Source: an uncultured Candidatus Saccharibacteria bacterium (GTDB taxonomy: Bacteria > Patescibacteriota > Minisyncoccia > Phycocordibacterales > EsbW-18). Taken from it: DNA of 64,000 nucleotides. Of the stretch, positions 18,663-64,000 are shown one piece after another. The DNA lies in assembly GCA_964520295.1 (NCBI GenBank), contig CAZFMQ010000001.1, positions 84,604 through 148,603 on the forward strand, written 5' to 3'. Within the stretch, counting starts at the first letter, position 1. Each line of letters begins with the position of its first letter. The position numbers and the translations under genes are program-made. Under the pieces are notes generated by a model. The model was not told where the DNA came from, did not search any database, and saw nothing but the letters and a program-made list of their open reading frames with translations.

Positions 18663-19628
18663 TTATTTCTCGTGCGCGAGGATGTAGGCACGTGTCAGAG
18701 GGCCAAAATAGCCCACTGCAGGCGTAATGCCGACACTTCGTTGATATTCGGCCAATGCTGCTTGTGTGATAGGGCCGAAGTATCCCGTTGCACCTGCACC
18801 TGCTAATTTTTGTGCGTTTGGTCCGCTATTTTTCAAAATAAGAAATGCTTGCAGTGCGGTAACGAGTGGACCTTCCGCACCTACTTCAAGGTCCAAAGAT
18901 GTTTGCGCTGTTTCTGGAGTTTGTGTGGTGGTGCCAAATACTTTTGTGATATCGGCAGGAAGTTTGATACCCGCCATGGTCGCTTGGCGTAATTCGCTGG
19001 CATACTGTGCAACAACAAAATCAATAAGCTCGTCTTCATCCGAAACAGTATCAAGTGCTTCTTCAAGATAGGTTATTTTATCGCGTAGCGAGAGTTCTTT
19101 GGTAATGCGTGGGTATGGGTCTGTGGCACTTCGTCCATCGCGAATTTCGAAGTGCAGGTGTGCTGGTCCTCCTGCGGCATTGCCGGTATTGCCGACGTAG
19201 CCGACGATGTCTCCTGCATCTAATTCGTCTCCTGCATCAACAAGTATTTCGTCTAGATGCATGTAGCGGAATGTCTCACCACCTGGATTTGCGGTGTATA
19301 CATATTTGCCGGAACCCGAACCATTACCGGTGCGCGTGACAATGGCTTCAGTGGGGGAGATAATCGGCGCGCCTTTTGGTGCCATGATGTCCAGGCCCTC
19401 ATGCGAACGTGCCCCTCCGTCACGCGGGTCGCCAAAATTCTCGGTGAGGTGTACGAGTTGTACACCAAAAAGGATAGGAATAAATAATTTTTCTACACGA
19501 TCATCATCAAGGTTGTTGATTTTTCGTTGGATTGAACGTGATACGCCACGACCACCACCATATTGCGCGTATGAAGCAAGAGGAATAATAAGTGCGCAGA
19601 GTACTACGCCAATTAATATTTTTTTCAT
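18663..19628 (-). CDS. M23 family metallopeptidase (LytM-like) with signal peptide and C-terminal peptidoglycan-binding-like repeats
   Basis: Signal peptide MKKILIGVVLCALIIPLASYA. M23 catalytic motifs HEGLDI and GYVGNTGNAAGGPAHLHFEIR. C-terminal ATGYFGPITQAALAEYQRSVGITPAVGYFGPLTRAY. Confidence 0.9.
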   Translation of the reverse strand: MKKILIGVVLCALIIPLASYAQYGGGRGVSRSIQRKINNLDDDRVEKLFIPILFGVQLVHLTENFGDPRDGGARSHEGLDIMAPKGAPIISPTEAIVTRTGNGSGSGKYVYTANPGGETFRYMHLDEILVDAGDELDAGDIVGYVGNTGNAAGGPAHLHFEIRDGRSATDPYPRITKELSLRDKITYLEEALDTVSDEDELIDFVVAQYASELRQATMAGIKLPADITKVFGTTTQTPETAQTSLDLEVGAEGPLVTALQAFLILKNSGPNAQKLAGAGATGYFGPITQAALAEYQRSVGITPAVGYFGPLTRAYILAHEK

Positions 19629-44226: not shown

Positions 44227-44559
44227 ATGATTACATATGACGATTTTACAAAAGTAGACATTCGCGTCGGGAAAATCACAAAGGTCGAAGATTTTCCCGA
44301 AGCTCGGAAGCCAGCATATAAAATCTGGATTGATTTTGGAGTAGAAATTGGTACTAAAGTTTCTTCTGCCCAAATCACAAAGCATTATTCAAAAGATAAC
44401 CTTATCGGCAAGCAAGTAATTGGTGTTGTGAATTTCCCACCAAAACAAATTGGTCCGTTTAAATCAGAAGTACTGACTCTTGGATTAACAGATGAAAATG
44501 GCGATGTTGTCATTGTTGCACCAACTAAAGAAGTTCCATTAGGCGGAAAACTATTTTAA
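44227..44559 (+). CDS. csaA: tRNA-binding protein (CsaA/Trbp111-like OB-fold, EMAP/MetRS C-terminal-domain type)
   Basis: DFTKVDIRVGKITKVEDFPEARKPAYKIWIDFG...IGKQVIGVVNFPPKQIGPFKSEVLTLG is the canonical Trbp111 domain. Confidence 0.88.
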   Translation: MITYDDFTKVDIRVGKITKVEDFPEARKPAYKIWIDFGVEIGTKVSSAQITKHYSKDNLIGKQVIGVVNFPPKQIGPFKSEVLTLGLTDENGDVVIVAPTKEVPLGGKLF

Positions 44560-44564
44560 CTATT

Positions 44565-45995
44565 ATGAAGTTTACTAAAAGAGACTTGCCAAAAAAATCA
44601 GAAAACCTTTCTGATTGGTATAACAAAGTAATTTTGATGGCTGAGCTTGCTGACTATGGCCCAGCAAAGGGAACGATGATTTACCGTCCCTATGGTTATG
44701 CTATCTGGGAGCTTATACAAAAAGAAATGGATAGTTTGATAAAGGAGCGCGGAGTTGAGAATGGATATTTCCCTCTTTTTATCCCTGAATCTTTGCTCAA
44801 AAAGGAAGAAAGTCATATTGAAGGATTTTCTCCAGAGCTAGCAGTTGTAACAATTGGCGGAGGTGAACAATTGACAGAAAAGTTGGTAGTAAGACCAACC
44901 AGCGAAACAATAATGTATGACGCTTATTCACGCTGGATCCACTCTTGGCGTGATTTACCGTTGATGATTAATCAGTGGAATAATGTCGTTCGATGGGAGA
45001 AAAGAACTTATATGTTTTTGCGCACAACAGAATTCTTATGGCAAGAAGGACATACTGCTCATGCGACACATGATGAAGCATGGGAGATGGTTTTATGGGC
45101 GATGAAAATGTACCAGAAAGTTTATCGTGAACTTTTTGCAATGCCTGGATATGTGGGAAGAAAATCTGAGTCAGAAAAATTTGCAGGCGCTGACAAGACT
45201 TTGACCTTTGAATCACTTATGCCTGAGGGAAAAGCTTTACAAAGCTGTACTTCGCACGATTTAGGTCAAAACTTTTCAAAGACATTCGATATTTCCTTCC
45301 TTAATTCAGAAGGAAAATCAGAGAATGTATGGCAGACGAGTTGGGGTCTATCTACACGCTCAATTGGTGGCCTTATTATGATGCATGGCGATGATGCGGG
45401 ATTGGTCTTGCCGCCTCGTCTAGCTCCAATTCAAGTTGTAGTTTTGCCAGTAAAAGGCGATGAAGAAATCATGGTGATATGTAAAGATATACAAGAGAAA
45501 TTAAAGGCCAAAAGTATTCGGGTAAAAATTGATGACTCAGATAATGAGACAATTGGATTCCGTATTAATAAGTGGGAATTAAAAGGTGTTCCTCTAAGGA
45601 TTGAAGTTGGCATAAAGGAAGTTGAGCAAGGCAAAATCACGGCTGTTCGCAGAGATAATGGAGAAAAGTTTAGCTTCTCAAATAATGAGTTGATCGAAAA
45701 GACTAGCGAACTCTTGCACACGATTCAGAGCGAGTTATATCAAAGAGCAGAAAAGTTTCTGCAGGAAAATACTCGGAACGTAAAAACGTACGAGGAGTTT
45801 AAAGAAACTTTGTCTGAAAAGCGAGGATTTATTTCTGCATTCTGGTGTGAGAATGAGGAATGTGAAAAAAATATAAAAGAAGAAACAAAAGCAACTACTC
45901 GGTGCCAACCAATTGATTCAGAAGAATTGGACGGAAAATGTGTCTATTGTAATAGGCCTGCAAAATACAGCTGGCTCTTTGGCCAGGCTTATTAG
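44565..45995 (+). CDS. proS: Prolyl-tRNA synthetase, archaeal/eukaryotic type (no INS editing domain, C-terminal Zn-binding domain ending in Tyr)
   Basis: Class II motifs, anticodon-binding domain, and a C-terminal CxxC...CxxC...Y (CENEECEKN...CVYCNRPAKYSWLFGQAY). Length 476 aa. AT-rich codon usage. Confidence 0.9.
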   Translation: MKFTKRDLPKKSENLSDWYNKVILMAELADYGPAKGTMIYRPYGYAIWELIQKEMDSLIKERGVENGYFPLFIPESLLKKEESHIEGFSPELAVVTIGGGEQLTEKLVVRPTSETIMYDAYSRWIHSWRDLPLMINQWNNVVRWEKRTYMFLRTTEFLWQEGHTAHATHDEAWEMVLWAMKMYQKVYRELFAMPGYVGRKSESEKFAGADKTLTFESLMPEGKALQSCTSHDLGQNFSKTFDISFLNSEGKSENVWQTSWGLSTRSIGGLIMMHGDDAGLVLPPRLAPIQVVVLPVKGDEEIMVICKDIQEKLKAKSIRVKIDDSDNETIGFRINKWELKGVPLRIEVGIKEVEQGKITAVRRDNGEKFSFSNNELIEKTSELLHTIQSELYQRAEKFLQENTRNVKTYEEFKETLSEKRGFISAFWCENEECEKNIKEETKATTRCQPIDSEELDGKCVYCNRPAKYSWLFGQAY

Positions 45996-46056
45996 CCACC
46001 CAAACTCAAGTGTTACTTGAAGCGAACACGAGCTTCCTCGTGCTAGCTGTTAAATG

Positions 46057-46143
46057 CGGAGACAAGAGGATTCGAACCTCTGGTCGGATTTCTCCGACAC
46101 CACCTTTCCAAGGTGGCGCATTCGACCGCTCTGCCATGTCTCC
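46057..46143 (-). tRNA. tRNA-Ser (anticodon GGA), type II with long variable arm
   Basis: Reverse-complement fold. Acceptor GGAGACA/TGTCTCC, 3-bp D-stem GCA/TGC, anticodon stem CCACC/GGTGG with loop TTGGAAA, variable arm GTCGG...CCGAC, T-arm AGAGG-TTCGAAT-CCTCT, discriminator G. Confidence 0.85.
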
Positions 46144-52933: not shown

Positions 52934-53800
52934 CTACACGTACCTTTCAATTTTGCCAAGTCGGACAGCAACAAGACGCTTCAATTCAAGCATAGAAATA
53001 ATAATATTGAGTTGTGTAATTGACAGCCCTGTTACGCGCGCAATTTCGTCGGCGGTCGCGGGTTCCGCGACCGCTTCTAGCACCGCGCGCTCCTCGGGAG
53101 ATACTGTGTCAGGGATGGGCGCCACTGCGCTCTCGCGTATGGGGATAGCGAGTGCCTGCAAAATGTCTGCACCACAGGTAACGGCTTGCGCGCCGTTGCG
53201 CAATAATTGATTAGAGCCCGCGTGTTGTGCACTGTAGATTGCGCCGGGCACAACGAGCACATCTCGATTGTATTCCATGGCGAGGCGCGCGGTAATGCAG
53301 GTGCCAGATTTTTCGCGCGCCTCAATGATGAGTGTTGCATGACACATGCCCGCCATAATTCTATTGCGACGCGCAAACACCCATGCACCGCCGGCATCAT
53401 CATTACTGAGTTCAGAGATGAGTGCGCCACCAGCACCGCAGATGGCGTGTGCAAGTCCGAGATGTGCACGCGGATACAATCGCTCATCTGTTATCGGCGA
53501 GCCGGGAACCGCGACGGTCTTCAATCCCGTGGCGAGTGCCGCTTCATGTGCGATGCTATCAATGCCGAGCGCTAATCCCGATACAATCACCACAGGATAG
53601 CCGGCGAGTTCTTGAATGAGTTTTCGGCATACCGATGCGCCGTAGGGGGAGTAGGCGCGCGAGCCGACCACGCAGAGCCAGACGCTTTGCTCGTCGGGGA
53701 GCGTGCCGCGCATATATAATTGTGTGGGTGCATCGGGGATTTCGCGCAAAAGCGCGGGAAAATCCTTACGGCGCAGTGTCAGTATCGGGTTGTCCTTCAT
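52934..53800 (-). CDS. dprA: DNA processing protein DprA (Smf)
   Basis: Rossmann-like DprA core (LCVVGSRAYSPYG...VVIVSGLALGIDSIAHEAAL...GGALISE). ORF-track start at 54304 rejected; start set at ATG 53800. Confidence 0.88.
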   Translation of the reverse strand: MKDNPILTLRRKDFPALLREIPDAPTQLYMRGTLPDEQSVWLCVVGSRAYSPYGASVCRKLIQELAGYPVVIVSGLALGIDSIAHEAALATGLKTVAVPGSPITDERLYPRAHLGLAHAICGAGGALISELSNDDAGGAWVFARRNRIMAGMCHATLIIEAREKSGTCITARLAMEYNRDVLVVPGAIYSAQHAGSNQLLRNGAQAVTCGADILQALAIPIRESAVAPIPDTVSPEERAVLEAVAEPATADEIARVTGLSITQLNIIISMLELKRLVAVRLGKIERYV

Positions 53801-53867
53801 GCGGTCACTATGCCACGGGGGATATGAAGAATAGATAAAAACCATTTTTACGCTATAGTAGAGGCAT

Positions 53868-55139
53868 ATGTTGGATATCAATTTCATTCGAGAAAACAAA
53901 GAAAGCGTCGCCGTGGGTGCAAAAAAGAAGCGCATGGAGGTGGACATTGACGCACTCATCGCACTTGATGACACACGCCGCACACTCACGCAGGTGGTGG
54001 ACGATATGCGCGCACAACAAAACACTGCAAGCGAAAAAATCCCACAGGCATCAGCAGAAGAGCGCACCGCACTGTTGGCAGATATGAAGACGTTGAAAGA
54101 AGCACTGCAGGCAAAAGAAGAAGAACTCAAGGGCGTGATGGAAGAATGGAAAACACTGATGTTGCAGGTGCCGAATGTGCCCGATATTTCGGTGCCAGAT
54201 GGCGACAGCGATGCAGACAATAAAGAAATAAAAGTATGGGGTGAGCCGAAGCAATTTGATTTTGAACCGAAAACCCACATTGAGATTATGGAAAATCTCG
54301 GCATGCTTGATTTGGAGCGCGGTACAAAGGTGCACGGCTTTCGAGGTTACTTTCTCAAAGGTGATGGTGCACAGCTCACATTTGCCATTTGGAATCATGC
54401 GCTCAACTTTTTCATGCAGAAAGGATTTGAATTGATGATTACACCTGCAATTGTAAAAAAACAATTGCTGTATGGCACGGGGCATTTGCCAAATGATGTT
54501 GAAGATATTTTCCGTACACAAGATGACGATTATCTTGCGGGGACCGCCGAGGTGCCGGTGATGGGATATCACAGCGATGAAGTGTTGGATCTAAAAGGAT
54601 TACCAAAAAAGTATCTCGCATTTTCTCCTTGCTATCGTCGCGAAGTAGGCAGTTACAGCAAAGATGTGAAGGGACTTATTCGTGTGCACGAGTTTTATAA
54701 GTTTGAACAAGTTATTCTCTGCGAAGCAAATCACGAAGAGTCAGTGAAGTGGCACGAATGGCTCAATCGTAATGCCGAAGAGTTTATTGAAAGTTTAGGT
54801 ATTCCGTATCATACCGTGTTGAATTGTGGTGGTGATTTAGGATTGGGACAGGTGAAGAAGTACGATATTGAGTTGTGGGTGCCTCTGGAGCAAAAGTATC
54901 GCGAGATCGGGTCGGCATCGTATTTCCACGATTTTCAATGTCGTCGTTTCAATATCAAATATACTGATGCAGAAGGACAGCGCCGATTTGCGCACTCACT
55001 CAATGACACCGCAATTCCCACACCACGTATTCTCGTCTCATTGATAGAAAATTATCAGAATGCTGATGGGTCGGTTACTATTCCTGAAGTATTGCGTCCG
55101 TACATGGGTGGTCGCGAGAAAATAGAGAAACGCTCATAG
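53868..55139 (+). CDS. serS: Seryl-tRNA synthetase
   Basis: N-terminal coiled-coil arm and class II motifs (FRGYFLKGDGAQL, GLIRVHEFYKFEQV, GSASYFHDFQCRRF). Confidence 0.95.
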   Translation: MLDINFIRENKESVAVGAKKKRMEVDIDALIALDDTRRTLTQVVDDMRAQQNTASEKIPQASAEERTALLADMKTLKEALQAKEEELKGVMEEWKTLMLQVPNVPDISVPDGDSDADNKEIKVWGEPKQFDFEPKTHIEIMENLGMLDLERGTKVHGFRGYFLKGDGAQLTFAIWNHALNFFMQKGFELMITPAIVKKQLLYGTGHLPNDVEDIFRTQDDDYLAGTAEVPVMGYHSDEVLDLKGLPKKYLAFSPCYRREVGSYSKDVKGLIRVHEFYKFEQVILCEANHEESVKWHEWLNRNAEEFIESLGIPYHTVLNCGGDLGLGQVKKYDIELWVPLEQKYREIGSASYFHDFQCRRFNIKYTDAEGQRRFAHSLNDTAIPTPRILVSLIENYQNADGSVTIPEVLRPYMGGREKIEKRS

Positions 55140-58279: not shown

Positions 58280-58367
58280 AAGTGCCTAATCGGTCTGGCG
58301 TTCGAATCCTACCCGAACAAAGACCAGCGACGCCTTGGTGCTTCGCACCCAGTCGAAGCTGCTCTAG

Positions 58368-58438
58368 TTGCCGGACTAGGATTCGAACCTAGATACCCTC
58401 CTCCAAAGGGAGGTGTCCTACCATTAGACGATCCGGCA
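58368..58438 (-). tRNA. tRNA-Gln (anticodon UUG)
   Basis: Reverse-complement fold. Acceptor TGCCGGA/TCCGGCA, anticodon stem CCTCC/GGAGG with loop CTTTGGA, T-arm CTAGG-TTCGAAT-CCTAG, discriminator A. CCA not encoded. Confidence 0.85.
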
Positions 58439-58547
58439 GATGCGGCGCCATTGTAACATTTTTAGGCGTGATTGGTATACTATGAGTGAGGGAACAGGGA
58501 ACGGTTCATGGGGAACGGAAATCACATAGCACGTAACACATATCATT

Positions 58548-59282
58548 ATGGCAACAAAAATTATCGCAGGTTTGGCACTCCTCTTTGCACTCGGCGCAGG
58601 TGCCTTTTACTACTCTGAGAAAAACACAGTCAACACACCAGCAGACACCGATGAGCAAGTATTCTGTACCATGGACGCACTCATGTGTCCTGATGGTTCT
58701 GGTGTTGGACGCGTTGGTCCTGCGTGTGCATTCCAAGCATGTCCGCAACAAGCATCATTTGTCGGCGAATTGCAGAGCACAACAGGCGGTTTTCAATTGG
58801 TGTTTGAGCCAACAGACGCCACGATGCCAATGCAGGAGTACACAATGCCACTAATTGTGGAGGATGCAGATGCGTTCAAAAACTTTGTCGGCAAACGAGT
58901 AGTTGTACGTGGTACTTTCACACACGGAAGCACCTACAACGTTGAAAGTATGGAACTTGCTACAGAAGCAAACACTACGCACGGTATTGTTGCACTCGGT
59001 GAGACGAAAGTAATCAATGGTGTCAGCATCACACTCAATGCAGTGACACAGGATAGCCGTTGCCCTATTGATGCGGTCTGTATTCAAGCAGGTTGGGTTG
59101 AAGCAGATGTGACACTCTCACGCGGTCCTGATACAAAAACAGTGACACTTGATTCTCGCGAAACCTACCCGTTCACTATTTTTGATATTGCCATGATTTC
59201 TATTGCGCCTGCACGTATGGCAAGCGAACCATTTGATGACAATGCGTACCGCATTACGTTTGAAGTGACCCTTCGTCGCTAA
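58548..59282 (+). CDS. Hypothetical secreted or membrane-anchored protein with a Cys-rich N-terminal segment
   Basis: Signal anchor [20 protein letters not shown]. Beta-rich. Confidence 0.55.
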
Positions 59283-59349
59283 CGCTCCTCAGGGTCTTCG
59301 ACACCCTAGCAAAAGATTAGTGCGAGCCGTACTCTGGTACACTGTGGGT

Positions 59350-59721
59350 ATGAAGCCAACCAGTGAAGCAACACTGAAGCGTGTATATGGATACATCTTT
59401 GCAAATGTGTATCCGATGTATATTGCCAAGGCAGAAAAGAAAGGTCGCACCAAAGAAGAAGTCGATGCGATTATTCGCTGGCTTACGGGATACACACAAA
59501 GCAAACTGAATGCACAGATACAGAAAGGGATGGATTTCAAAACATTTTTTAAAGAAGCGCCTGCACCTAACCCATCGCGCACACTCATCACGGGTATGGT
59601 TTGTGGTGTGCGCGTAGAAGAGATTAAGGACAAGGTTATGCGTGAAGTGCGGTATCTTGATAAACTCGTAGATGAGCTCGCAAAAGGAAGGCCGATGGAG
59701 AAGATTTTGCGAAAGCCATAA
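59350..59721 (+). CDS. DUF2200-like protein
   Basis: [38 protein letters not shown] matches the DUF2200 family pattern. Confidence 0.6.
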
Positions 59722-59731
59722 TGAAACACAC

Positions 59732-60037
59732 ATGCTTAAAAAATATATAGCGTATGTAAGAAAGAATCCGGAACGCTACTGGTTCAAGCGAAAGATTTGG
59801 GGGTGGGGCTGGGTGCCGGTGACGTGGCAAGGATGGTGTGCCACAGCATTGTATCTTGTGTTCGTTTTTTTGCTTGTCTATAGCAGAGAAGAGGCAATTC
59901 CAGGCAATCCTGATTCTGGAAGCAATTTCTTAGTGTTTGGACTACCGTTTATTGTGCTCACCGCTCTTTTTCTTCTCATCGCTTATAAAAAGGGGGAGAA
60001 GCCGAAGTGGCAATGGGGAGTACCAAAAGAGAAATAA
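59732..60037 (+). CDS. Hypothetical membrane protein (Trp-rich N-terminus, 2 TM helices)
   Basis: ORF 59672..60037 with internal ATG 59732. Confidence 0.45.
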   Translation: MLKKYIAYVRKNPERYWFKRKIWGWGWVPVTWQGWCATALYLVFVFLLVYSREEAIPGNPDSGSNFLVFGLPFIVLTALFLLIAYKKGEKPKWQWGVPKEK

Positions 60038-60063
60038 TTACTACTAACTAATTTTTTAATGTT

Positions 60064-60507
60064 ATGGAAAAGCTTACGTTCACAACAGTTATCAACGCAC
60101 CGAGAGAAAAAGTGTGGAATACTATGCTTGAAAAAGAGACCTACCAACAATGGGTTGCACCATTTCATGAGGGTTCTACCTATGAAGGGACCTGGGAGGA
60201 GGGAAGCGAAATAAAATTTACCGGACCAAGCGAAGATGGAAGTGTTTCGGGTATGTATGCAGTCATCGCAGCCAATCGACCGCATGAGTTTATATCAATA
60301 AAGCATCAAGGAGCATTCAAAGATGAAGAAAAAACACCATGGCCTGTTGTAGAAGGACAAGAGGGATACGAAAACTATTCATTCAAGGATGTTGATGGTG
60401 GTACAGAGGTACTCGTTGAGTTGCTGGTGCCTGCAGAATGGAAAGATATGTTTACTGACACGTGGCCAAAAGCATTGGCCAAGCTCAAAGAAATCACTGA
60501 AAAATAG
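60064..60507 (+). CDS. SRPBCC-fold protein (AHSA1/Activator-of-Hsp90-ATPase-like)
   Basis: 147 aa. VINAPREKVWNTMLEKETYQQWV..F is typical of the AHSA1/START-like superfamily. Confidence 0.65.
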   Translation: MEKLTFTTVINAPREKVWNTMLEKETYQQWVAPFHEGSTYEGTWEEGSEIKFTGPSEDGSVSGMYAVIAANRPHEFISIKHQGAFKDEEKTPWPVVEGQEGYENYSFKDVDGGTEVLVELLVPAEWKDMFTDTWPKALAKLKEITEK

Positions 60508-60562
60508 TGAGCGTACAAGAGGTGTTATTCAGTAATTTTTTGAAAAGCGATATACTTAATTT

Positions 60563-61114
60563 GTGAATGAAACCGACATCCTTAATTTGATAAAAAGCGA
60601 CCCAGGAATGATGCGAATTCTTGAAGTAGCTGAAAGTATGAATCTTCCTGATTGGTTAATAGGTGCAGGATTCGTTCGTAATAAAGTATGGGATTATTTG
60701 CATGGATATAAGAAGAACACTCCTCCTACTGATATTGATTTAGTTTATTTTGATAAAGAAATTAGATTTAACGAAAAAGAAATTGAAAAAAGACTAAGTA
60801 CTCAAATACCAAATGTTGATTGGGAGGTAGTTAACCAAGCTACTGTCCATGGTTGGAATGAAGAAGAGCCATACACTTCAACCACTGATGCTATATCCAA
60901 ATGGCCAGAAACAGCAACAGGAGTTGGTGTGGCTCTAAAAAACGGTGAGCTTGAACTGGTCGCGCCGTTAGGTATAGATGATTTGGTGCATATCATTGCT
61001 AGACCAACCCCAGCCTTTCAAGTATCTGATAGGAAGAGGGCGAGAGTACAAGAAAGGATTATCCAAAAGAGATGGAAGGAGAAATGGCCGAAACTTCAAA
61101 TTCTTGAGGACTAG
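60563..61114 (+). CDS. Nucleotidyltransferase family protein (pol-beta-type GS...DxD motif)
   Basis: LIGAGFVRNKVWDYLHG...TDIDLVYFD. AT-rich gene. Confidence 0.6.
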   Translation: MNETDILNLIKSDPGMMRILEVAESMNLPDWLIGAGFVRNKVWDYLHGYKKNTPPTDIDLVYFDKEIRFNEKEIEKRLSTQIPNVDWEVVNQATVHGWNEEEPYTSTTDAISKWPETATGVGVALKNGELELVAPLGIDDLVHIIARPTPAFQVSDRKRARVQERIIQKRWKEKWPKLQILED

Positions 61115-61222
61115 TAATTATGCGCATATTGTTTGGGAAAGGGCATAGGTTCTGCTTTTAGTAATCCACAGAATTGAGGGGAGGGGGGTCGGCAGGGCGA
61201 GTGAGTGTGCTATGCTTTTTGT

Positions 61223-61465
61223 ATGACTATCATACCTATTGTTTCCATTGCGCTTGAGGCAGTGATTGCCATTGTGGCACTGTACAGTGCGATGCGCGGG
61301 CGCTCGTACATGGCGGGTCTCGCCGTTACATTTGGTATTTATGTGTATTACGATCTTGCACGGCACTACGCATGGGCGACAGCAGAACAGACGCTTCAGC
61401 TGATGTTCCTCGTTGCGACGGTTGCCGCGTTCTGGTCGGTTATGAGTATCGTTCGTAACAAATAA
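61223..61465 (+). CDS. Hypothetical small membrane protein
   Basis: Two TM helices. Confidence 0.4.
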   Translation: MTIIPIVSIALEAVIAIVALYSAMRGRSYMAGLAVTFGIYVYYDLARHYAWATAEQTLQLMFLVATVAAFWSVMSIVRNK

Positions 61466-61467
61466 CT

Positions 61468-61704
61468 ATGTTTGCATCTATTGGACTTGGTATTGTCGTA
61501 CTTGCGTGGATATCGCAACTCGTTGCATTGATTTCGAAACAGAATCATCGCATTCAACCATTGTTTGTGTTGCTGTATGCGCTTGGTGTTGTACTCCTTG
61601 TCATTGATGGATTTTCAGCAGGGCTCACGACACTTGCGTATTTGAATCTCGCCTCGTTGGTCTGTGCGCTTCTCGTGTTTGCATTTGCAATACGCAGAAA
61701 CTAA
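61468..61704 (+). CDS. Hypothetical small membrane protein
   Basis: 78 aa with 2-3 TM helices. Tightly packed after the previous ORF. Confidence 0.4.
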   Translation: MFASIGLGIVVLAWISQLVALISKQNHRIQPLFVLLYALGVVLLVIDGFSAGLTTLAYLNLASLVCALLVFAFAIRRN

Positions 61705-61709
61705 TACGT

Positions 61710-62285
61710 ATGCACACAAAACAATCAGTGCTCGCCGTGCTCTTGTTAGTTGTGGGTTTTTTTGCAGTGCGCTCGTTTCTCTCGCGGCAACCACACGTAG
61801 GCATATCCACTGAGTATAAGAGTGTTGCGTACATGATTGAGGGACAGCGCATACAACTGGAGCATGGTGTGGCAGAAACTCCGCTTGCACCAGATTCCGC
61901 GTTGAAAAGTATCACCCAGTATTTTGGTAATGAACTCATTACCGATCTTGATGGTGATGGCGACGATGATGTTGCTTTTGTTCTCTCACACACAACAGGC
62001 GGAACGGGTACGTTTTACTACGCTGTGGCTGCACTTGCCACTGAAAATGGCTATGTTGGATCGGATGGTTATCTCCTTGGGGATCGTGTTGCACCACAAT
62101 CAGTGGAGCTTAGTCCAAATCCTAGACATGTATATGTTGTGGTCTTCAACTATGCTGATCGCGCACTCGGCGAGCCGATGGCTGCGCAACCATCAGTGGG
62201 CAAGAGTGTGTATTTGAAAATGGTGCCCGAAACAGCACAGTGGGCAATTGTAGAGCCAGATTTTGAAGGCGAGTCTAATTTTTAG
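61710..62285 (+). CDS. Hypothetical secreted or membrane-anchored protein
   Basis: N-terminal anchor LAVLLLVVGFFAV. DGDGDDD segment. Confidence 0.5.
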   Translation: MHTKQSVLAVLLLVVGFFAVRSFLSRQPHVGISTEYKSVAYMIEGQRIQLEHGVAETPLAPDSALKSITQYFGNELITDLDGDGDDDVAFVLSHTTGGTGTFYYAVAALATENGYVGSDGYLLGDRVAPQSVELSPNPRHVYVVVFNYADRALGEPMAAQPSVGKSVYLKMVPETAQWAIVEPDFEGESNF

Positions 62286-62297
62286 TACAGAAAATCT

Positions 62298-62338
62298 CCG
62301 CGTCTCGCCCTGCACACAGGGCGAGACGCGGGTTTTTT
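62298..62338 (+). terminator. Rho-independent terminator: 15-bp perfect stem CCGCGTCTCGCCCTG/CAGGGCGAGACGCGG then TTTTTT
   Basis: Read directly. Confidence 0.85.
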
Positions 62339-62519
62339 ATATTCAAGAATATCGCCGTGTTGGCGGGAGCGTGCAGTGTGGACAACGCACATGAAGAGCA
62401 TATATGCCCAGCATACATAACGAAAACGGACTTTATAATTTTTTTATCACGCATCCGTATACTGTGCTTCAGATAGTTCGTCATGGTGACGACTGTTCTT
62501 TCACAAAAAGGAGAAGAAG

Positions 62520-64000
62520 GTGCGCACACTCACGCAGTACCTCTGCAAGATCATCATCGGTCTTGCGGTGCTCGCCGGCACGGCCGCGAGTGCCAACGTC
62601 ACGGTCAAACTGCAGGGCAACTACACGGTTACATCTGGCACCACGAGAATCACGGTGCCGCTGACGCTCCTGCAGGCAGGCCACGTCTATACGATGACGG
62701 CGGCTCCTGTATCCGGCAATGTTACCGCGTACGGCGACCCGTATCTCTGGGGCCTCGTGTACAAGGAGGGCTCCACCACTGCGCGTGTCGTCAGTCAGTC
62801 GCGTCACAGCCCCGATCTGGGCGAGCGCGTCTATCTCCGCAAGGAGATGCTGAACTCCGGTGAGAACAAGGCGGAGTTCTGGGCGCGTTGCGAGACATCG
62901 TCCTGCTACATGCGTCTGACGATCTACGAACGTGCCAAGGGTACATTCGACAAACGCACGTTCTATCGTGAGGGCGTCGAGCCCGGTGTCATCGACGGCC
63001 AGTTCTCACTCTACAAGGATTTTTATCATCCAACGGAGAAGAACGGCACATACGGTCTGCAGGTGGATTACCAGACGAATCGGTACATCTATCTCTATCG
63101 TGATGACAACTTCAGCACGAGTGGTATGAACGCGCTGTCGTTCTGGGTGCGGAGCAGTGGTTCCATCGATGATGGCGACTTGTATGTCGCACTCACGACG
63201 AGCAATCACGGCATGATCACGAGCTGGATACCGCTGTCGTACTACGTGGACATGCCACAGAGCCACACGTGGTATCGCGTGCTCATTCCGTTCTCGGATC
63301 TGAACCCCTCGGGTCAATCCGTGCGCGGTCTCGCTGTTCTGAGCACTCATTCCGGCTTCGTGTACTTCGACGACATGGAGTTTGTGTCGACATCGCTTCC
63401 GGAGCCGTTCAAACTACGTCTGCCGGTATCTGGCTACACGCCTTACTCGGTGCCTATCAGTGCTGTGATGGACAACAGCCTCAACACTCCTGGTGTTATC
63501 ACCGCGTACAACGGTCAACAGGGTCTGTTCAGTAACGGTTGTAAGGAGTATCTCGTTTCAGGCTCCTACATCAACTGTTCTGGTTCGGTGAATAATTACG
63601 AGCCTCCGGACGACGTTCTGGGCTACCGTAGGGCCGGTGGTGGGCTGTTTACTCTCGGCATCAACTACAATGACGGTGTGTCTGCAAGTGGAAAGGAATA
63701 TCTTTTCTACGACGAACACACTGGGTACGATTTTGTACCTGCCGGAGCGTCGAATCTCAACGTTCCTGTGTACGCCGCAACCAGCGGAACGGTGAGCTAT
63801 GGGCAGGCACCGTGGAATGAAGTCATCATCACGCACGGTGATGGGTGCTCAACACATTACCTGCACATGATGTATGACAGCTACCTCATTTCAAGCGGGG
63901 TAACTGTTACCAAGGGTGCTCGCATCGGCACAGTCGGGAACACCGGCGGTGTGAGCCCTCATTTGCACTTCACAGTGAAGTGCAACGGTAATCGGGTTGA
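62520..64000 (+). CDS. Secreted M23 family metallopeptidase with a large (~390 aa) N-terminal domain. 3'-partial, running off the window. High GC.
   Basis: Manual translation from GTG 62520 after the SD AAAGGAGAAGAAGG. Signal peptide MRTLTQYLCKIIIGLAVLAGTAASA. C-terminal M23 motifs (YDF...NVPVYAATSGTV; THYLHMMYDS; GNTGGVSPHLHF). No in-frame stop to nt 64000, so it is absent from the ORF track. Confidence 0.8.
   Translation, partial: MRTLTQYLCKIIIGLAVLAGTAASANVTVKLQGNYTVTSGTTRITVPLTLLQAGHVYTMTAAPVSGNVTAYGDPYLWGLVYKEGSTTARVVSQSRHSPDLGERVYLRKEMLNSGENKAEFWARCETSSCYMRLTIYERAKGTFDKRTFYREGVEPGVIDGQFSLYKDFYHPTEKNGTYGLQVDYQTNRYIYLYRDDNFSTSGMNALSFWVRSSGSIDDGDLYVALTTSNHGMITSWIPLSYYVDMPQSHTWYRVLIPFSDLNPSGQSVRGLAVLSTHSGFVYFDDMEFVSTSLPEPFKLRLPVSGYTPYSVPISAVMDNSLNTPGVITAYNGQQGLFSNGCKEYLVSGSYINCSGSVNNYEPPDDVLGYRRAGGGLFTLGINYNDGVSASGKEYLFYDEHTGYDFVPAGASNLNVPVYAATSGTVSYGQAPWNEVIITHGDGCSTHYLHMMYDSYLISSGVTVTKGARIGTVGNTGGVSPHLHFTVKCNGNRV

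What the first reader, a model, noticed from the sequence alone, without database searches (positions are those of the whole stretch)
62520..64000. Edge-truncated, high-GC secreted M23 peptidase missed by the ORF track
A continuous ORF of at least 493 codons begins at GTG 62520 behind a strong SD and runs off the window. It therefore has no stop and is absent from the provided track. It encodes a signal peptide, a ~390 aa beta-rich N-terminal domain of unknown function and a C-terminal LytM/M23 domain (HLHF). Its GC content is clearly above the surrounding AT-rich accessory genes (59.3-62.3 kb), suggesting separate acquisition. A second, compositionally typical M23 peptidase is at 18663-19628. 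A secreted lytic peptidase of foreign composition could be an offensive or host-interaction factor.
Basis: seen in the sequence. Interest (0 to 1): 0.5.

Follow-up and report, generated by a model that had tools for sequence, protein, structure and literature searches.

The report
Horizontally acquired secreted M23 wall peptidase
A real, almost complete gene in a tiny-genome (Patescibacteria) bacterium encodes a secreted cell-wall-cutting enzyme with two unusual targeting domains. It was clearly picked up from an unrelated bacterium, which is interesting but an ordinary kind of gene.

Summary
GTG 62520 is the only possible start, six bases after a GGAG, and the frame stays open to 64000. An identical database protein (P0001) is 502 aa, so the window lacks only 9 codons and the stop.

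The "390-aa unknown domain" resolves into three parts:
- a PPC/collagen-binding-like beta-jelly-roll (aa 27-146)
- a CBM30/CBM8/CBM11-like carbohydrate-binding-type jelly-roll (aa 147-296)
- about 100 aa that belong to an extended M23 domain (aa 297-399)

The M23 core (aa 400-502) keeps all catalytic residues: H400, D404, H449, H481 and H483.

The foreign-composition claim is confirmed. GC3 is 0.69 against a window mean of 0.44 (z about 4). The gene lies in a block with no counterpart in the sister lineage. Its nearest relative (68%) sits in a non-CPR, apparently Holophagales-like context.

The N1+CBM module is very rare, about 3 clusters among 1.84 billion representatives. It is fused to three different M23 catalytic types, as expected of shuffled lytic enzymes. 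A Saccharibacteria genome independently carries a GC-rich copy.

An offensive or host-directed role is plausible but not shown. This is a new member of a known kind, of moderate to low interest.

The parts
62297..62332 (+). Intrinsic terminator of the upstream 191-aa gene; marks the left edge of the peptidase transcription unit
   Evidence: 16-bp stem with 12 GC pairs followed by a T-run
62508..62513 (+). Shine-Dalgarno sequence AAGGAG, 6 nt before the GTG start
   Evidence: Sequence context TTCACAAAAAGGAGAAGAAGGTG
62520..64000 (+). Peptidase CDS, codons 1-493 of 502; the last 9 codons and the stop lie beyond the window
   Evidence: Open frame; identical 502-aa protein P0001; only possible start
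62520..62594 (+). Sec-type signal peptide, aa 1-25 (MRTLTQYLCKIIIGLAVLAGTAASA|N)
   Evidence: n/h/c regions and AXA motif by inspection, hydropathy peak 2.65; no predictor was run
62598..62957 (+). Domain N1, aa 27-146: beta-jelly-roll resembling the PPC / collagen-binding / protease accessory domains; conserved Cys124 and Cys129
62958..63407 (+). Domain N2, aa 147-296: carbohydrate-binding-module-type beta-jelly-roll (CBM30/CBM8/CBM11-like), ending in the ...GFVYFDDMEF strand
63408..63716 (+). N-terminal extension of the M23 domain, aa 297-399: first strand motif LRLPvSGYTPYsVPISAVMDNS, then a ~75-aa Cys-containing insert (C341, C353) before the HxxxD motif
   Evidence: Alignment A1: canonical M23 types (P0008/P0010) run straight from this strand to HxGxD, whereas P0001/2/5/7/9/11/12 carry the insert. 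The same motif occurs in P0156 and P0159
63717..64000 (+). M23 catalytic core, aa 400-493 of 400-502; zinc and catalytic residues H400, D404, H449, H481, H483
   Evidence: Pfam PF01551 at 61.3 bits. Alignments to Pgp3 6jmx, ShyA 6ue4 and TagE 5j1l. Residue positions
18663..19628 (-). Context only: the window's second, compositionally typical M23 peptidase (M23 + PG_binding_1), the likely housekeeping enzyme
   Evidence: 31% identity to the finding over the core
59289..62285 (.). Context only: mosaic accessory block (DUF2200, membrane protein, AHSA1/SRPBCC, NTP_transf_6, two small TM proteins, 191-aa TM-anchored protein) with no counterpart in sister-lineage contig L013
   Evidence: Pfam; tblastx synteny ends at about 59.27 kb; gene GC ranges 0.388-0.483

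Best explanation
The gene encodes a Sec-secreted, four-part peptidoglycan metallo-endopeptidase:
- a signal peptide
- a PPC-like beta-jelly-roll
- a CBM30-like carbohydrate-binding-type jelly-roll
- an extended but catalytically intact M23 (LytM/lysostaphin-type) zinc peptidase domain

**Shown**
- The architecture, the intact active-site residues and the CBM fold.
- The rarity of the N1+CBM module and its fusion to three different M23 catalytic types.
- The gene's foreign composition and its position in a non-syntenic accessory block of a Patescibacteria (CPR) genome.

**Inferred**
- After export, the two N-terminal jelly-rolls dock the enzyme on a cell-surface polymer, either peptidoglycan glycan strands or a wall-associated polysaccharide.
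- The M23 domain then cleaves peptide cross-links in peptidoglycan.
- The window also holds a compositionally native M23 + PG_binding_1 enzyme that can serve self-wall remodelling. This gene is a recent import from a higher-GC, non-CPR donor (Holophagales-like context). It therefore most likely acts on the wall of another cell, the episymbiont's host or a competitor, rather than in the bacterium's own division.
For: - **Gene integrity.** ORF, start and SD; full length 502 aa.
- **Catalytic domain.** M23 HMM and catalytic residues.
- **Recurrent CBM-M23 fusion.** The nearest CBM relatives, P0153, P0154, P0156 and P0159, are tandem CBM-like repeats fused to M23. Pfam CBM30 hits were found in P0153 and P0154. 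P0156 and P0159 carry the same extended M23 type as the window protein.
- **Domain shuffling.** The N-module is 62-74% identical in P0003, P0004, P0008 and P0010, while their C-terminal domains are only 28-38% identical and of other M23 types.
- **Horizontal transfer.**
  - GC3 is 0.69 against 0.445, z = 4.
  - Homologues keep GC 0.53-0.60 in host loci whose GC ranges 0.47-0.615.
  - Synteny with the sister lineage ends before this block.
  - The best homologue, P0002 (68%), sits beside a kinase-TPR gene homologous to that of a Holophagales genome.
- **Second CPR acquisition.** A Saccharibacteria MAG carries a GC-rich copy, 0.605 against 0.519.
- **Host lineage.** Patescibacteria, by SerRS.
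- **Precedent.** The CPR predator Vampirococcus has two DD-endopeptidases, one proposed for the prey wall and one for its own (PMC8080830). Antagonistic M23 hydrolases in archaea show shuffling and horizontal transfer (PMC12356512).
Against: - No activity, substrate or localisation data exist.
- The closest solved M23 relatives (Pgp3, ShyA, TagE) are self-wall remodelling enzymes.
- The ligand of the CBM-like domain is unknown. The domain does not reach any Pfam CBM threshold by itself.
- Downstream neighbours of the window gene could not be retrieved, so an immunity or partner gene is neither shown nor excluded.
- The signal peptide was judged by eye.
- The family also occurs in a free-living 8.4-Mb Holophagales genome, so it is not specific to episymbionts.
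Confidence: 0.5

Rival explanations
1. It is simply a second housekeeping autolysin (DD-endopeptidase) that the bacterium uses to remodel or split its own wall. The jelly-roll domains would anchor it to its own peptidoglycan.
For: The nearest solved M23 homologues, Pgp3, ShyA and TagE, are self-wall enzymes. NCBIfam best hits are MepM/ShyA/Pgp3-type. Many bacteria have several M23 paralogues.
Against: A native-composition M23 + PG_binding_1 is already present at 18663-19628. This gene is a GC3 outlier in a non-syntenic accessory block. No orthologue was found in related CPR genomes despite many SerRS relatives. The N-module is swapped between catalytic types, which is atypical for housekeeping enzymes.
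Confidence: 0.25
2. It is the wall-breaching hydrolase of a mobile genetic element, an accessory to DNA transfer (as PrgK or CwlT are in conjugative elements). It would have been carried into the CPR genome as part of that element.
For: In four homologue loci the peptidase lies within a few kb of a TrwB_AAD_bind/DUF87/TraG-D_C ATPase (L001, L007, L008, L010). L007 also has a large serine recombinase directly upstream and an HTH_3 regulator.
Against: None of these partner genes occurs in the 64-kb window or in the Saccharibacteria locus (tblastn). No relaxase or VirB4 hit appears in the Pfam annotations obtained for these loci. The protein has a cleavable signal peptide rather than a membrane anchor. 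The ATPases also match a defence-system component, mad8, so a conjugation role for them is itself unproven.
Confidence: 0.12
3. It is a secreted protease acting on a non-peptidoglycan substrate, for example Gly-rich extracellular proteins as LasA does. The PPC-like and CBM-like domains would bind a polymeric nutrient substrate.
For: PPC/collagen-binding-type domains are typical of secreted nutritional proteases such as collagenases and subtilisins. Some M23 enzymes cleave elastin or other Gly-Gly bonds (established knowledge of MEROPS M23A).
Against: Sequence hits are all to M23B peptidoglycan hydrolases, phage endolysins and tape-measure lysins. There was no match to LasA or beta-lytic protease types.
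Confidence: 0.08
4. The GC-rich ORF is an assembly or binning chimera joined to the CPR contig, not truly part of this genome.
For: Two independent Logan contigs of the same genome stop at 62523 and 62366, at or just before the ORF start. No independent contig spanning the junction into the gene body was recovered.
Against: The ORF starts exactly at the only available start codon, with a well-spaced SD and a proper signal peptide. The independent contig L003 is 100% identical through the SD and into the first four bases of the ORF. A random chimeric join would not produce this. GC3 of 0.69 lies between the donor-like copies (0.77-0.81) and the host (0.445), consistent with partial amelioration. 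Logan contigs of this genome are all short, 1-2 kb.
Confidence: 0.05

Closest known systems
M23B peptidoglycan DD-endopeptidases with solved structures: Campylobacter Pgp3 (6jmx), Vibrio ShyA (6ue4), TagE (5j1l)
   Same: The catalytic core aligns at E 2e-10 to 1e-9, with identical HxxxD, H and HxH zinc/catalytic motifs.
   Different: Those enzymes have LysM or other N-terminal regulatory domains and act on the cell's own wall. The window protein has PPC-like and CBM-like jelly-rolls and a ~75-aa Cys-containing insert between the first strand and HxxxD. It is also horizontally acquired.
Secreted bacteriolytic M23 enzymes (lysostaphin, zoocin A, and the archaeal zoocin-like hydrolases of PMC12356512)
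   Same: A secreted M23 catalytic domain joined to a separate wall-targeting module. The family shows domain shuffling and horizontal transfer.
   Different: The targeting module here is N-terminal and of CBM/PPC fold, not a C-terminal SH3b, target-recognition or PG-binding domain. No FemABX-type immunity gene was seen next to homologues. Killing activity is untested.
Uncharacterised tandem CBM30-like-M23 proteins (P0153, P0154, P0156, P0159)
   Same: The same CBM-like domain family (profile E 5e-43 to 9e-21) fused N-terminally to M23. P0156 and P0159 share the extended M23 type, with the PLxGYxPYTxPIxAVxDHS and YDGHTGYDYP motifs.
   Different: They carry 2-4 CBM repeats and lack the N1 (PPC-like) domain. 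None has a known function.
The two murein DD-endopeptidases of the CPR predator Vampirococcus lugosii (PMC8080830)
   Same: A CPR genome with two M23-type endopeptidases, where one is proposed to attack the prey wall and the other to remodel the cell's own wall. The window likewise has one native and one foreign M23.
   Different: No sequence comparison with the Vampirococcus proteins was made here. The parallel is functional and conceptual only.

Membership tests
Peptidase family M23 (Pfam PF01551; MEROPS M23B) | Match to the family HMM above the curated gathering score | tested here: met
   61.3 bits against a cut-off of 28.7, aa 400-493, profile positions 3-94 of 96
Peptidase family M23 (Pfam PF01551; MEROPS M23B) | HxxxD motif supplying two zinc ligands | tested here: met
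   H400-T-G-Y-D404; D404 is nearly invariant in the family alignment
Peptidase family M23 (Pfam PF01551; MEROPS M23B) | HxH motif (catalytic His plus third zinc ligand) and the additional conserved catalytic His | tested here: met
   H481-L-H483 and H449, all nearly invariant; they align with the same residues of Pgp3 and ShyA
Peptidase family M23 (Pfam PF01551; MEROPS M23B) | Zinc-dependent cleavage of peptidoglycan peptide bridges | not testable with these tools
   Requires a biochemical assay
Carbohydrate-binding module, beta-jelly-roll type (CBM30 / CBM11 / CBM8-like) | Beta-jelly-roll fold superposable on solved CBMs | tested here: met
Carbohydrate-binding module, beta-jelly-roll type (CBM30 / CBM11 / CBM8-like) | Sequence membership in a curated CBM family | tested here: not met
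   CBM_11 scores 13.7 bits against a cut-off of 27, and SGBP_B_XBD 14.1 against 26.4. The link is only transitive: profile relatives P0153 and P0154 reach Pfam CBM30 at 46.6 and 27.9 bits
Carbohydrate-binding module, beta-jelly-roll type (CBM30 / CBM11 / CBM8-like) | Demonstrated glycan binding | not testable with these tools
   Needs glycan arrays or pull-downs with purified sacculi
PPC (pre-peptidase C-terminal) / collagen-binding-domain-type jelly-roll | Fold similarity to PPC/CBD domains | tested here: inconclusive
PPC (pre-peptidase C-terminal) / collagen-binding-domain-type jelly-roll | Match to the Pfam PPC model | tested here: not met
   No Pfam family hit for any of 10 N1 sequences at E up to 10, except two isolated chance-level hits; no PDB sequence hit below E 0.19
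Lysostaphin / zoocin A-type bacteriocin with immunity gene | Adjacent immunity gene (FemABX-like) protecting the producer | tested here: inconclusive
   The window ends before any downstream gene. Homologue loci have a convergent 175-205-aa TM-anchored protein (two unrelated families, no Pfam hit), not FemABX
Lysostaphin / zoocin A-type bacteriocin with immunity gene | C-terminal SH3b or target-recognition domain | tested here: not met
   No such domain is present; the targeting modules are N-terminal jelly-rolls
Conjugative-element peptidoglycan hydrolase (PrgK / CwlT-like) | Encoded within a T4SS or conjugation gene set (VirB4, coupling protein, relaxase) | tested here: not met
   No homologue of the TrwB/DUF87 ATPases or other cluster partners in the window or in L002. 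The partners occur only in non-CPR homologue loci
Phage endolysin / prophage lysis gene | Relatives on viral contigs, or a prophage context | tested here: not met
   No relative in 2.9 million IMG/VR contigs. PHROG hits cover only the generic M23 core. The neighbours are not phage genes

The most novel reading that the evidence does not exclude
The N1+CBM module may be a host-recognition device. It may travel, together with a small membrane-anchored partner gene, as a 'lysin plus immunity' cassette that swaps M23 warheads. Two separate CPR lineages (this Paceibacteria-like genome and a Saccharibacteria) would then have captured it from free-living, higher-GC bacteria to breach the wall of their hosts. 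If so, the CBM specificity would help set the episymbiont's host range.
Probability: 0.15. Interest if true: 0.6.

Novelty: new member of a known kind. Interest (0 to 1): 0.3.

Why it matters
Patescibacteria live attached to other microbes, and how they open the host envelope is poorly understood. A recently imported, secreted, glycan-targeted wall peptidase is a concrete candidate for that step, or for competition with other bacteria. It would be easy to express and test.

The rare N1+CBM module, found with three different M23 catalytic types in three phyla, is a small and clean example of modular evolution and cross-phylum transfer of lytic enzymes.

On present evidence, however, it remains an uncharacterised member of a very large and well-known enzyme family.

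Tried and rejected
**Extending the window past 64000 (all failed)**
- An exact look-up of P0001 found no record.
- Look-ups of the upstream neighbour and of SerRS returned only 1-2-kb Logan contigs that stop at or before the ORF start.
- An exact-DNA scan of JGI metagenome contigs found nothing.

**Other dead ends**
- Prophage link: no relative on viral contigs.
- Defence-system link for the peptidase itself: no PADLOC hit.
- Homology between the two families of downstream small TM proteins: hhalign probability only 21%, so not demonstrated.
- Whether the downstream protein tracks the catalytic type (an immunity signature): tested with P0152, P0007 and P0002, but their contigs were too short.
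- A word-indexed search with the pre-M23 insert alone gave one fragment, which was uninformative.
- The afdb50 fold library was unavailable.
- Sequence-profile searches of N1 and of the whole N-module against PDB and Pfam gave only chance-level hits; only structure comparison was informative.
- I considered the TrwB-like ATPase and kinase-TPR cluster as the explanation for the window gene and rejected it, because none of those partners is present in the window.

Full report
**1. The observation**

The frame starting at GTG 62520 is open to the last base of the window, 493 codons. An in-frame TGA lies at 62487 with no other start codon in between, so GTG 62520 is the only possible start. GGAG (62510-62513) lies six bases upstream. 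A strong intrinsic terminator (62297-62332: 16-bp stem, 12 GC pairs, T-run) closes the upstream gene, so the ORF heads its own transcription unit.

A database protein identical over all 493 residues (P0001) is 502 aa long and lies on a 181,055-bp NCBI contig. The window therefore lacks only 'DPYAANLWE' and the stop. The gene is intact, not a fragment.

**2. Anatomy**

- **aa 1-25** form a Sec-type signal peptide ending ASA|N. This was judged by inspection and hydropathy only.
- **aa 400-493** match Pfam Peptidase_M23 at 61.3 bits against a cut-off of 28.7. H400xxxD404, H449 and H481-L-H483 are all present. They align residue for residue with Pgp3 (6jmx) and ShyA (6ue4); TagE (5j1l) scores alongside them. 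The domain therefore looks catalytically competent, unlike degenerate LytM factors.
- **The '390-aa unknown domain' is three things.**
  - By sequence it stays below the Pfam thresholds (CBM_11 13.7 bits, SGBP_B_XBD 14.1 bits).
  - aa 297-399 are not a separate domain. The alignment shows the canonical first M23 strand (LRLPvSGYTPYsVPISAVMDNS) followed by a ~75-aa Cys-containing insert before HxxxD. This feature is shared with P0002/5/7/9/11/12 and absent from the canonical M23 domains of P0008/P0010.

**3. The family**

A word-indexed search of 5.8 billion proteins found only about ten clusters that carry the N-module. An exhaustive HMM search of 1.84 billion representatives found the complete N1+CBM module in just three 50% clusters: P0003, P0009 and the fragment P0152. 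The CBM-like half alone has 209 relatives, 41 of them below 1e-10.

The closest of these relatives (P0153, P0154, P0156, P0159) are proteins with several CBM-like repeats fused to a C-terminal M23. Pfam CBM30 scores 46.6 bits in P0153 and 27.9 in P0154. P0156 and P0159 carry the same extended M23 type as the window protein.

The N-module is fused to three distinct M23 types:
- The window type: P0002 at 69% in the C-domain, and P0005/7/9 at 50-55%.
- A second type in P0003, P0004 and P0152.
- A third type in P0008 and P0010.

Across the second and third types the N-module stays 62-74% identical while the catalytic domains are only 28-38% identical. This module shuffling is typical of targeted lytic enzymes. 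The literature describes the same pattern for antagonistic M23 hydrolases (PMC12356512).

**4. Host and acquisition**

The window's SerRS has its named relatives in 'Patescibacteria group' and 'Candidatus Pacebacteria' MAGs, with unnamed relatives at 75-85% identity. The host is therefore a CPR bacterium.

Four lines of evidence point to recent acquisition:
- **Composition.** The peptidase gene has GC 0.558 and GC3 0.690, against means of 0.470 and 0.445 (sd 0.061) for the other 56 ORFs. This is z = 4.0, the highest GC3 in the window.
- **A composition of its own.** Homologous genes hold GC 0.53-0.60 in loci whose background ranges from 0.47 to 0.615. They are richer than the background in the window, L001, L002, L006 and L009, and poorer in L007 and L008.
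- **Broken synteny.** A sister-lineage contig (L013, SerRS 85% identical) is collinear with the window from ~46.3 kb to the end of dnaX (58.3 kb). The next gene is inverted, and nothing from 59.3 to 64.0 kb has a counterpart there.
- **Nearest relative outside CPR.** The best full-length homologue is P0002 (68%). Its upstream neighbour is a Ser/Thr-kinase-TPR gene homologous to the one beside P0004 in an 8.4-Mb Holophagales MAG.

A Saccharibacteria MAG (L002) carries another copy with a different M23 type. It too is a local GC peak, 0.605 against 0.519. Acquisition from a higher-GC, non-CPR donor is well supported, and it appears to have happened at least twice in CPR.

**5. What it most likely does**

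The combination points to a secreted peptidoglycan endopeptidase docked to a cell-surface polymer by its N-terminal domains:
- an export signal
- two binding-type jelly-rolls
- an intact M23 centre

Which wall it attacks is inference. Several points favour a foreign target, either host or competitor:
- The native M23 + PG_binding_1 at 18663-19628 (minus strand, GC 0.483) is only 31% identical over the core and can cover housekeeping.
- The gene is accessory and recently imported.
- The catalytic domains are shuffled.
- There is a second CPR acquisition.
- In the CPR predator Vampirococcus, one of two DD-endopeptidases is proposed to attack the prey wall (PMC8080830).

Against this reading, the nearest solved relatives remodel the cell's own wall, the family also lives in a free-living acidobacterium, and nothing was measured. 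I put about 0.5 on the foreign-wall reading and 0.25 on a plain autolysin.

**6. Other readings considered**

- **Mobile-element hydrolase.** This reading arises because homologues in L001, L007, L008 and L010 lie near TrwB/DUF87/TraG-type ATPases, and L007 has a large serine recombinase next door. None of these partners is in the window or in L002.
- **Prophage origin.** Not supported.
- **Assembly chimera.** Two Logan contigs end at 62523 and 62366. This reading is unlikely because the independent contig L003 is identical through the SD and into the start codon. The start, SD and signal peptide are also perfectly arranged.

**7. Limits**

I could not obtain sequence beyond 64000. No signal-peptide predictor was available, and the ligand of the CBM-like domain is unknown.

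**8. Verdict**

The 'unknown' N-terminus is largely resolved into PPC-like and CBM-like targeting domains plus an extended M23. The offensive or host-interaction role is plausible but unproven.

This is a new member, with an unusual and very rare targeting module, of a well-known kind: modular secreted M23 peptidoglycan hydrolases. Interest is moderate to low, 0.3.

Noticed in passing
L001 7171-13535; L010 4762-10839; L007 3-7400; L008 3-9945; L009 3-3868; L006 8001-10093: Around non-CPR homologues there is a recurring cluster. A Ser/Thr-kinase-TPR (or TPR-only) protein comes first, then the N-module-M23 peptidase, then a convergent 175-205-aa TM-anchored protein, then a TrwB_AAD_bind/DUF87/TraG-D_C ATPase. 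L001 and L006 share only the peptidase + TM-protein pair, with unrelated flanks. In PADLOC the kinase matches mad6 (4.9e-57, though generic kinases match too) and the ATPases match mad8 (8e-18 to 5e-26), both components of the MADS defence system. The nature of this cluster (mobile element, conflict system or neither) is unresolved.
   Followed up: partly
L001 11468-12058, L006 9497-10093, L010 9065-9592 versus L007 3212-3766, L008 9328-9945: The small downstream TM-anchored proteins fall into two families: 49-53% identity within the first and 36% within the second. No relation between the two could be shown (hhalign probability 21%). The first family accompanies the P0004-type M23 and the second the window-type M23. 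That pattern would fit an immunity or inhibitor protein, but it is confounded with phylogeny.
   Followed up: partly
L010 7917-9100: The peptidase copy P0006 (344 aa) is decayed. The M23 core is deleted, and the family's C-terminal tail (LDEIEADGRLLTDYQVGCRLNVPPTGFYSS) is still readable in another frame just downstream.
   Followed up: yes
window 62366 and 62523 (ends of Logan contigs L004 and L003): Two independent short-read contigs of the same genome are 100% identical to the window but stop just before the peptidase ORF or four bases into it. This may reflect strain-level variation or a coverage drop at the gene boundary. It was not resolved.
   Followed up: partly
window 58367-59282: Synteny with the sister lineage breaks right after dnaX. 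The window has a tRNA-Gln (58367-58438, minus strand) there, and the next gene (244-aa secreted protein, 58548-59282) is inverted relative to its homologue in L013.
   Followed up: partly
window 60563-61114: The NTP_transf_6 nucleotidyltransferase gene is a low-GC outlier (GC 0.388, GC3 0.299) only 1.4 kb from the high-GC peptidase. The 59.3-64 kb block is therefore a compositional mosaic, probably assembled from several acquisitions.
   Followed up: no
window 44227-45995: Two adjacent ORFs (111 and 477 aa) have the lowest GC in the window (0.366 and 0.392; GC3 0.25 and 0.35). They sit next to tRNA-Ser (46056-46143) and may be another foreign island.
   Followed up: no
window 52934-54304 (minus strand): The mechanical ORF for dprA (456 aa) overlaps the serS start. 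The sister lineage's DprA is 287 aa, so the true start is probably internal, near 53.8 kb.
   Followed up: no
window 59320-59721 and 59672-60037: The DUF2200 gene and the following membrane-protein ORF overlap by 50 nt in different frames on the same strand.
   Followed up: no
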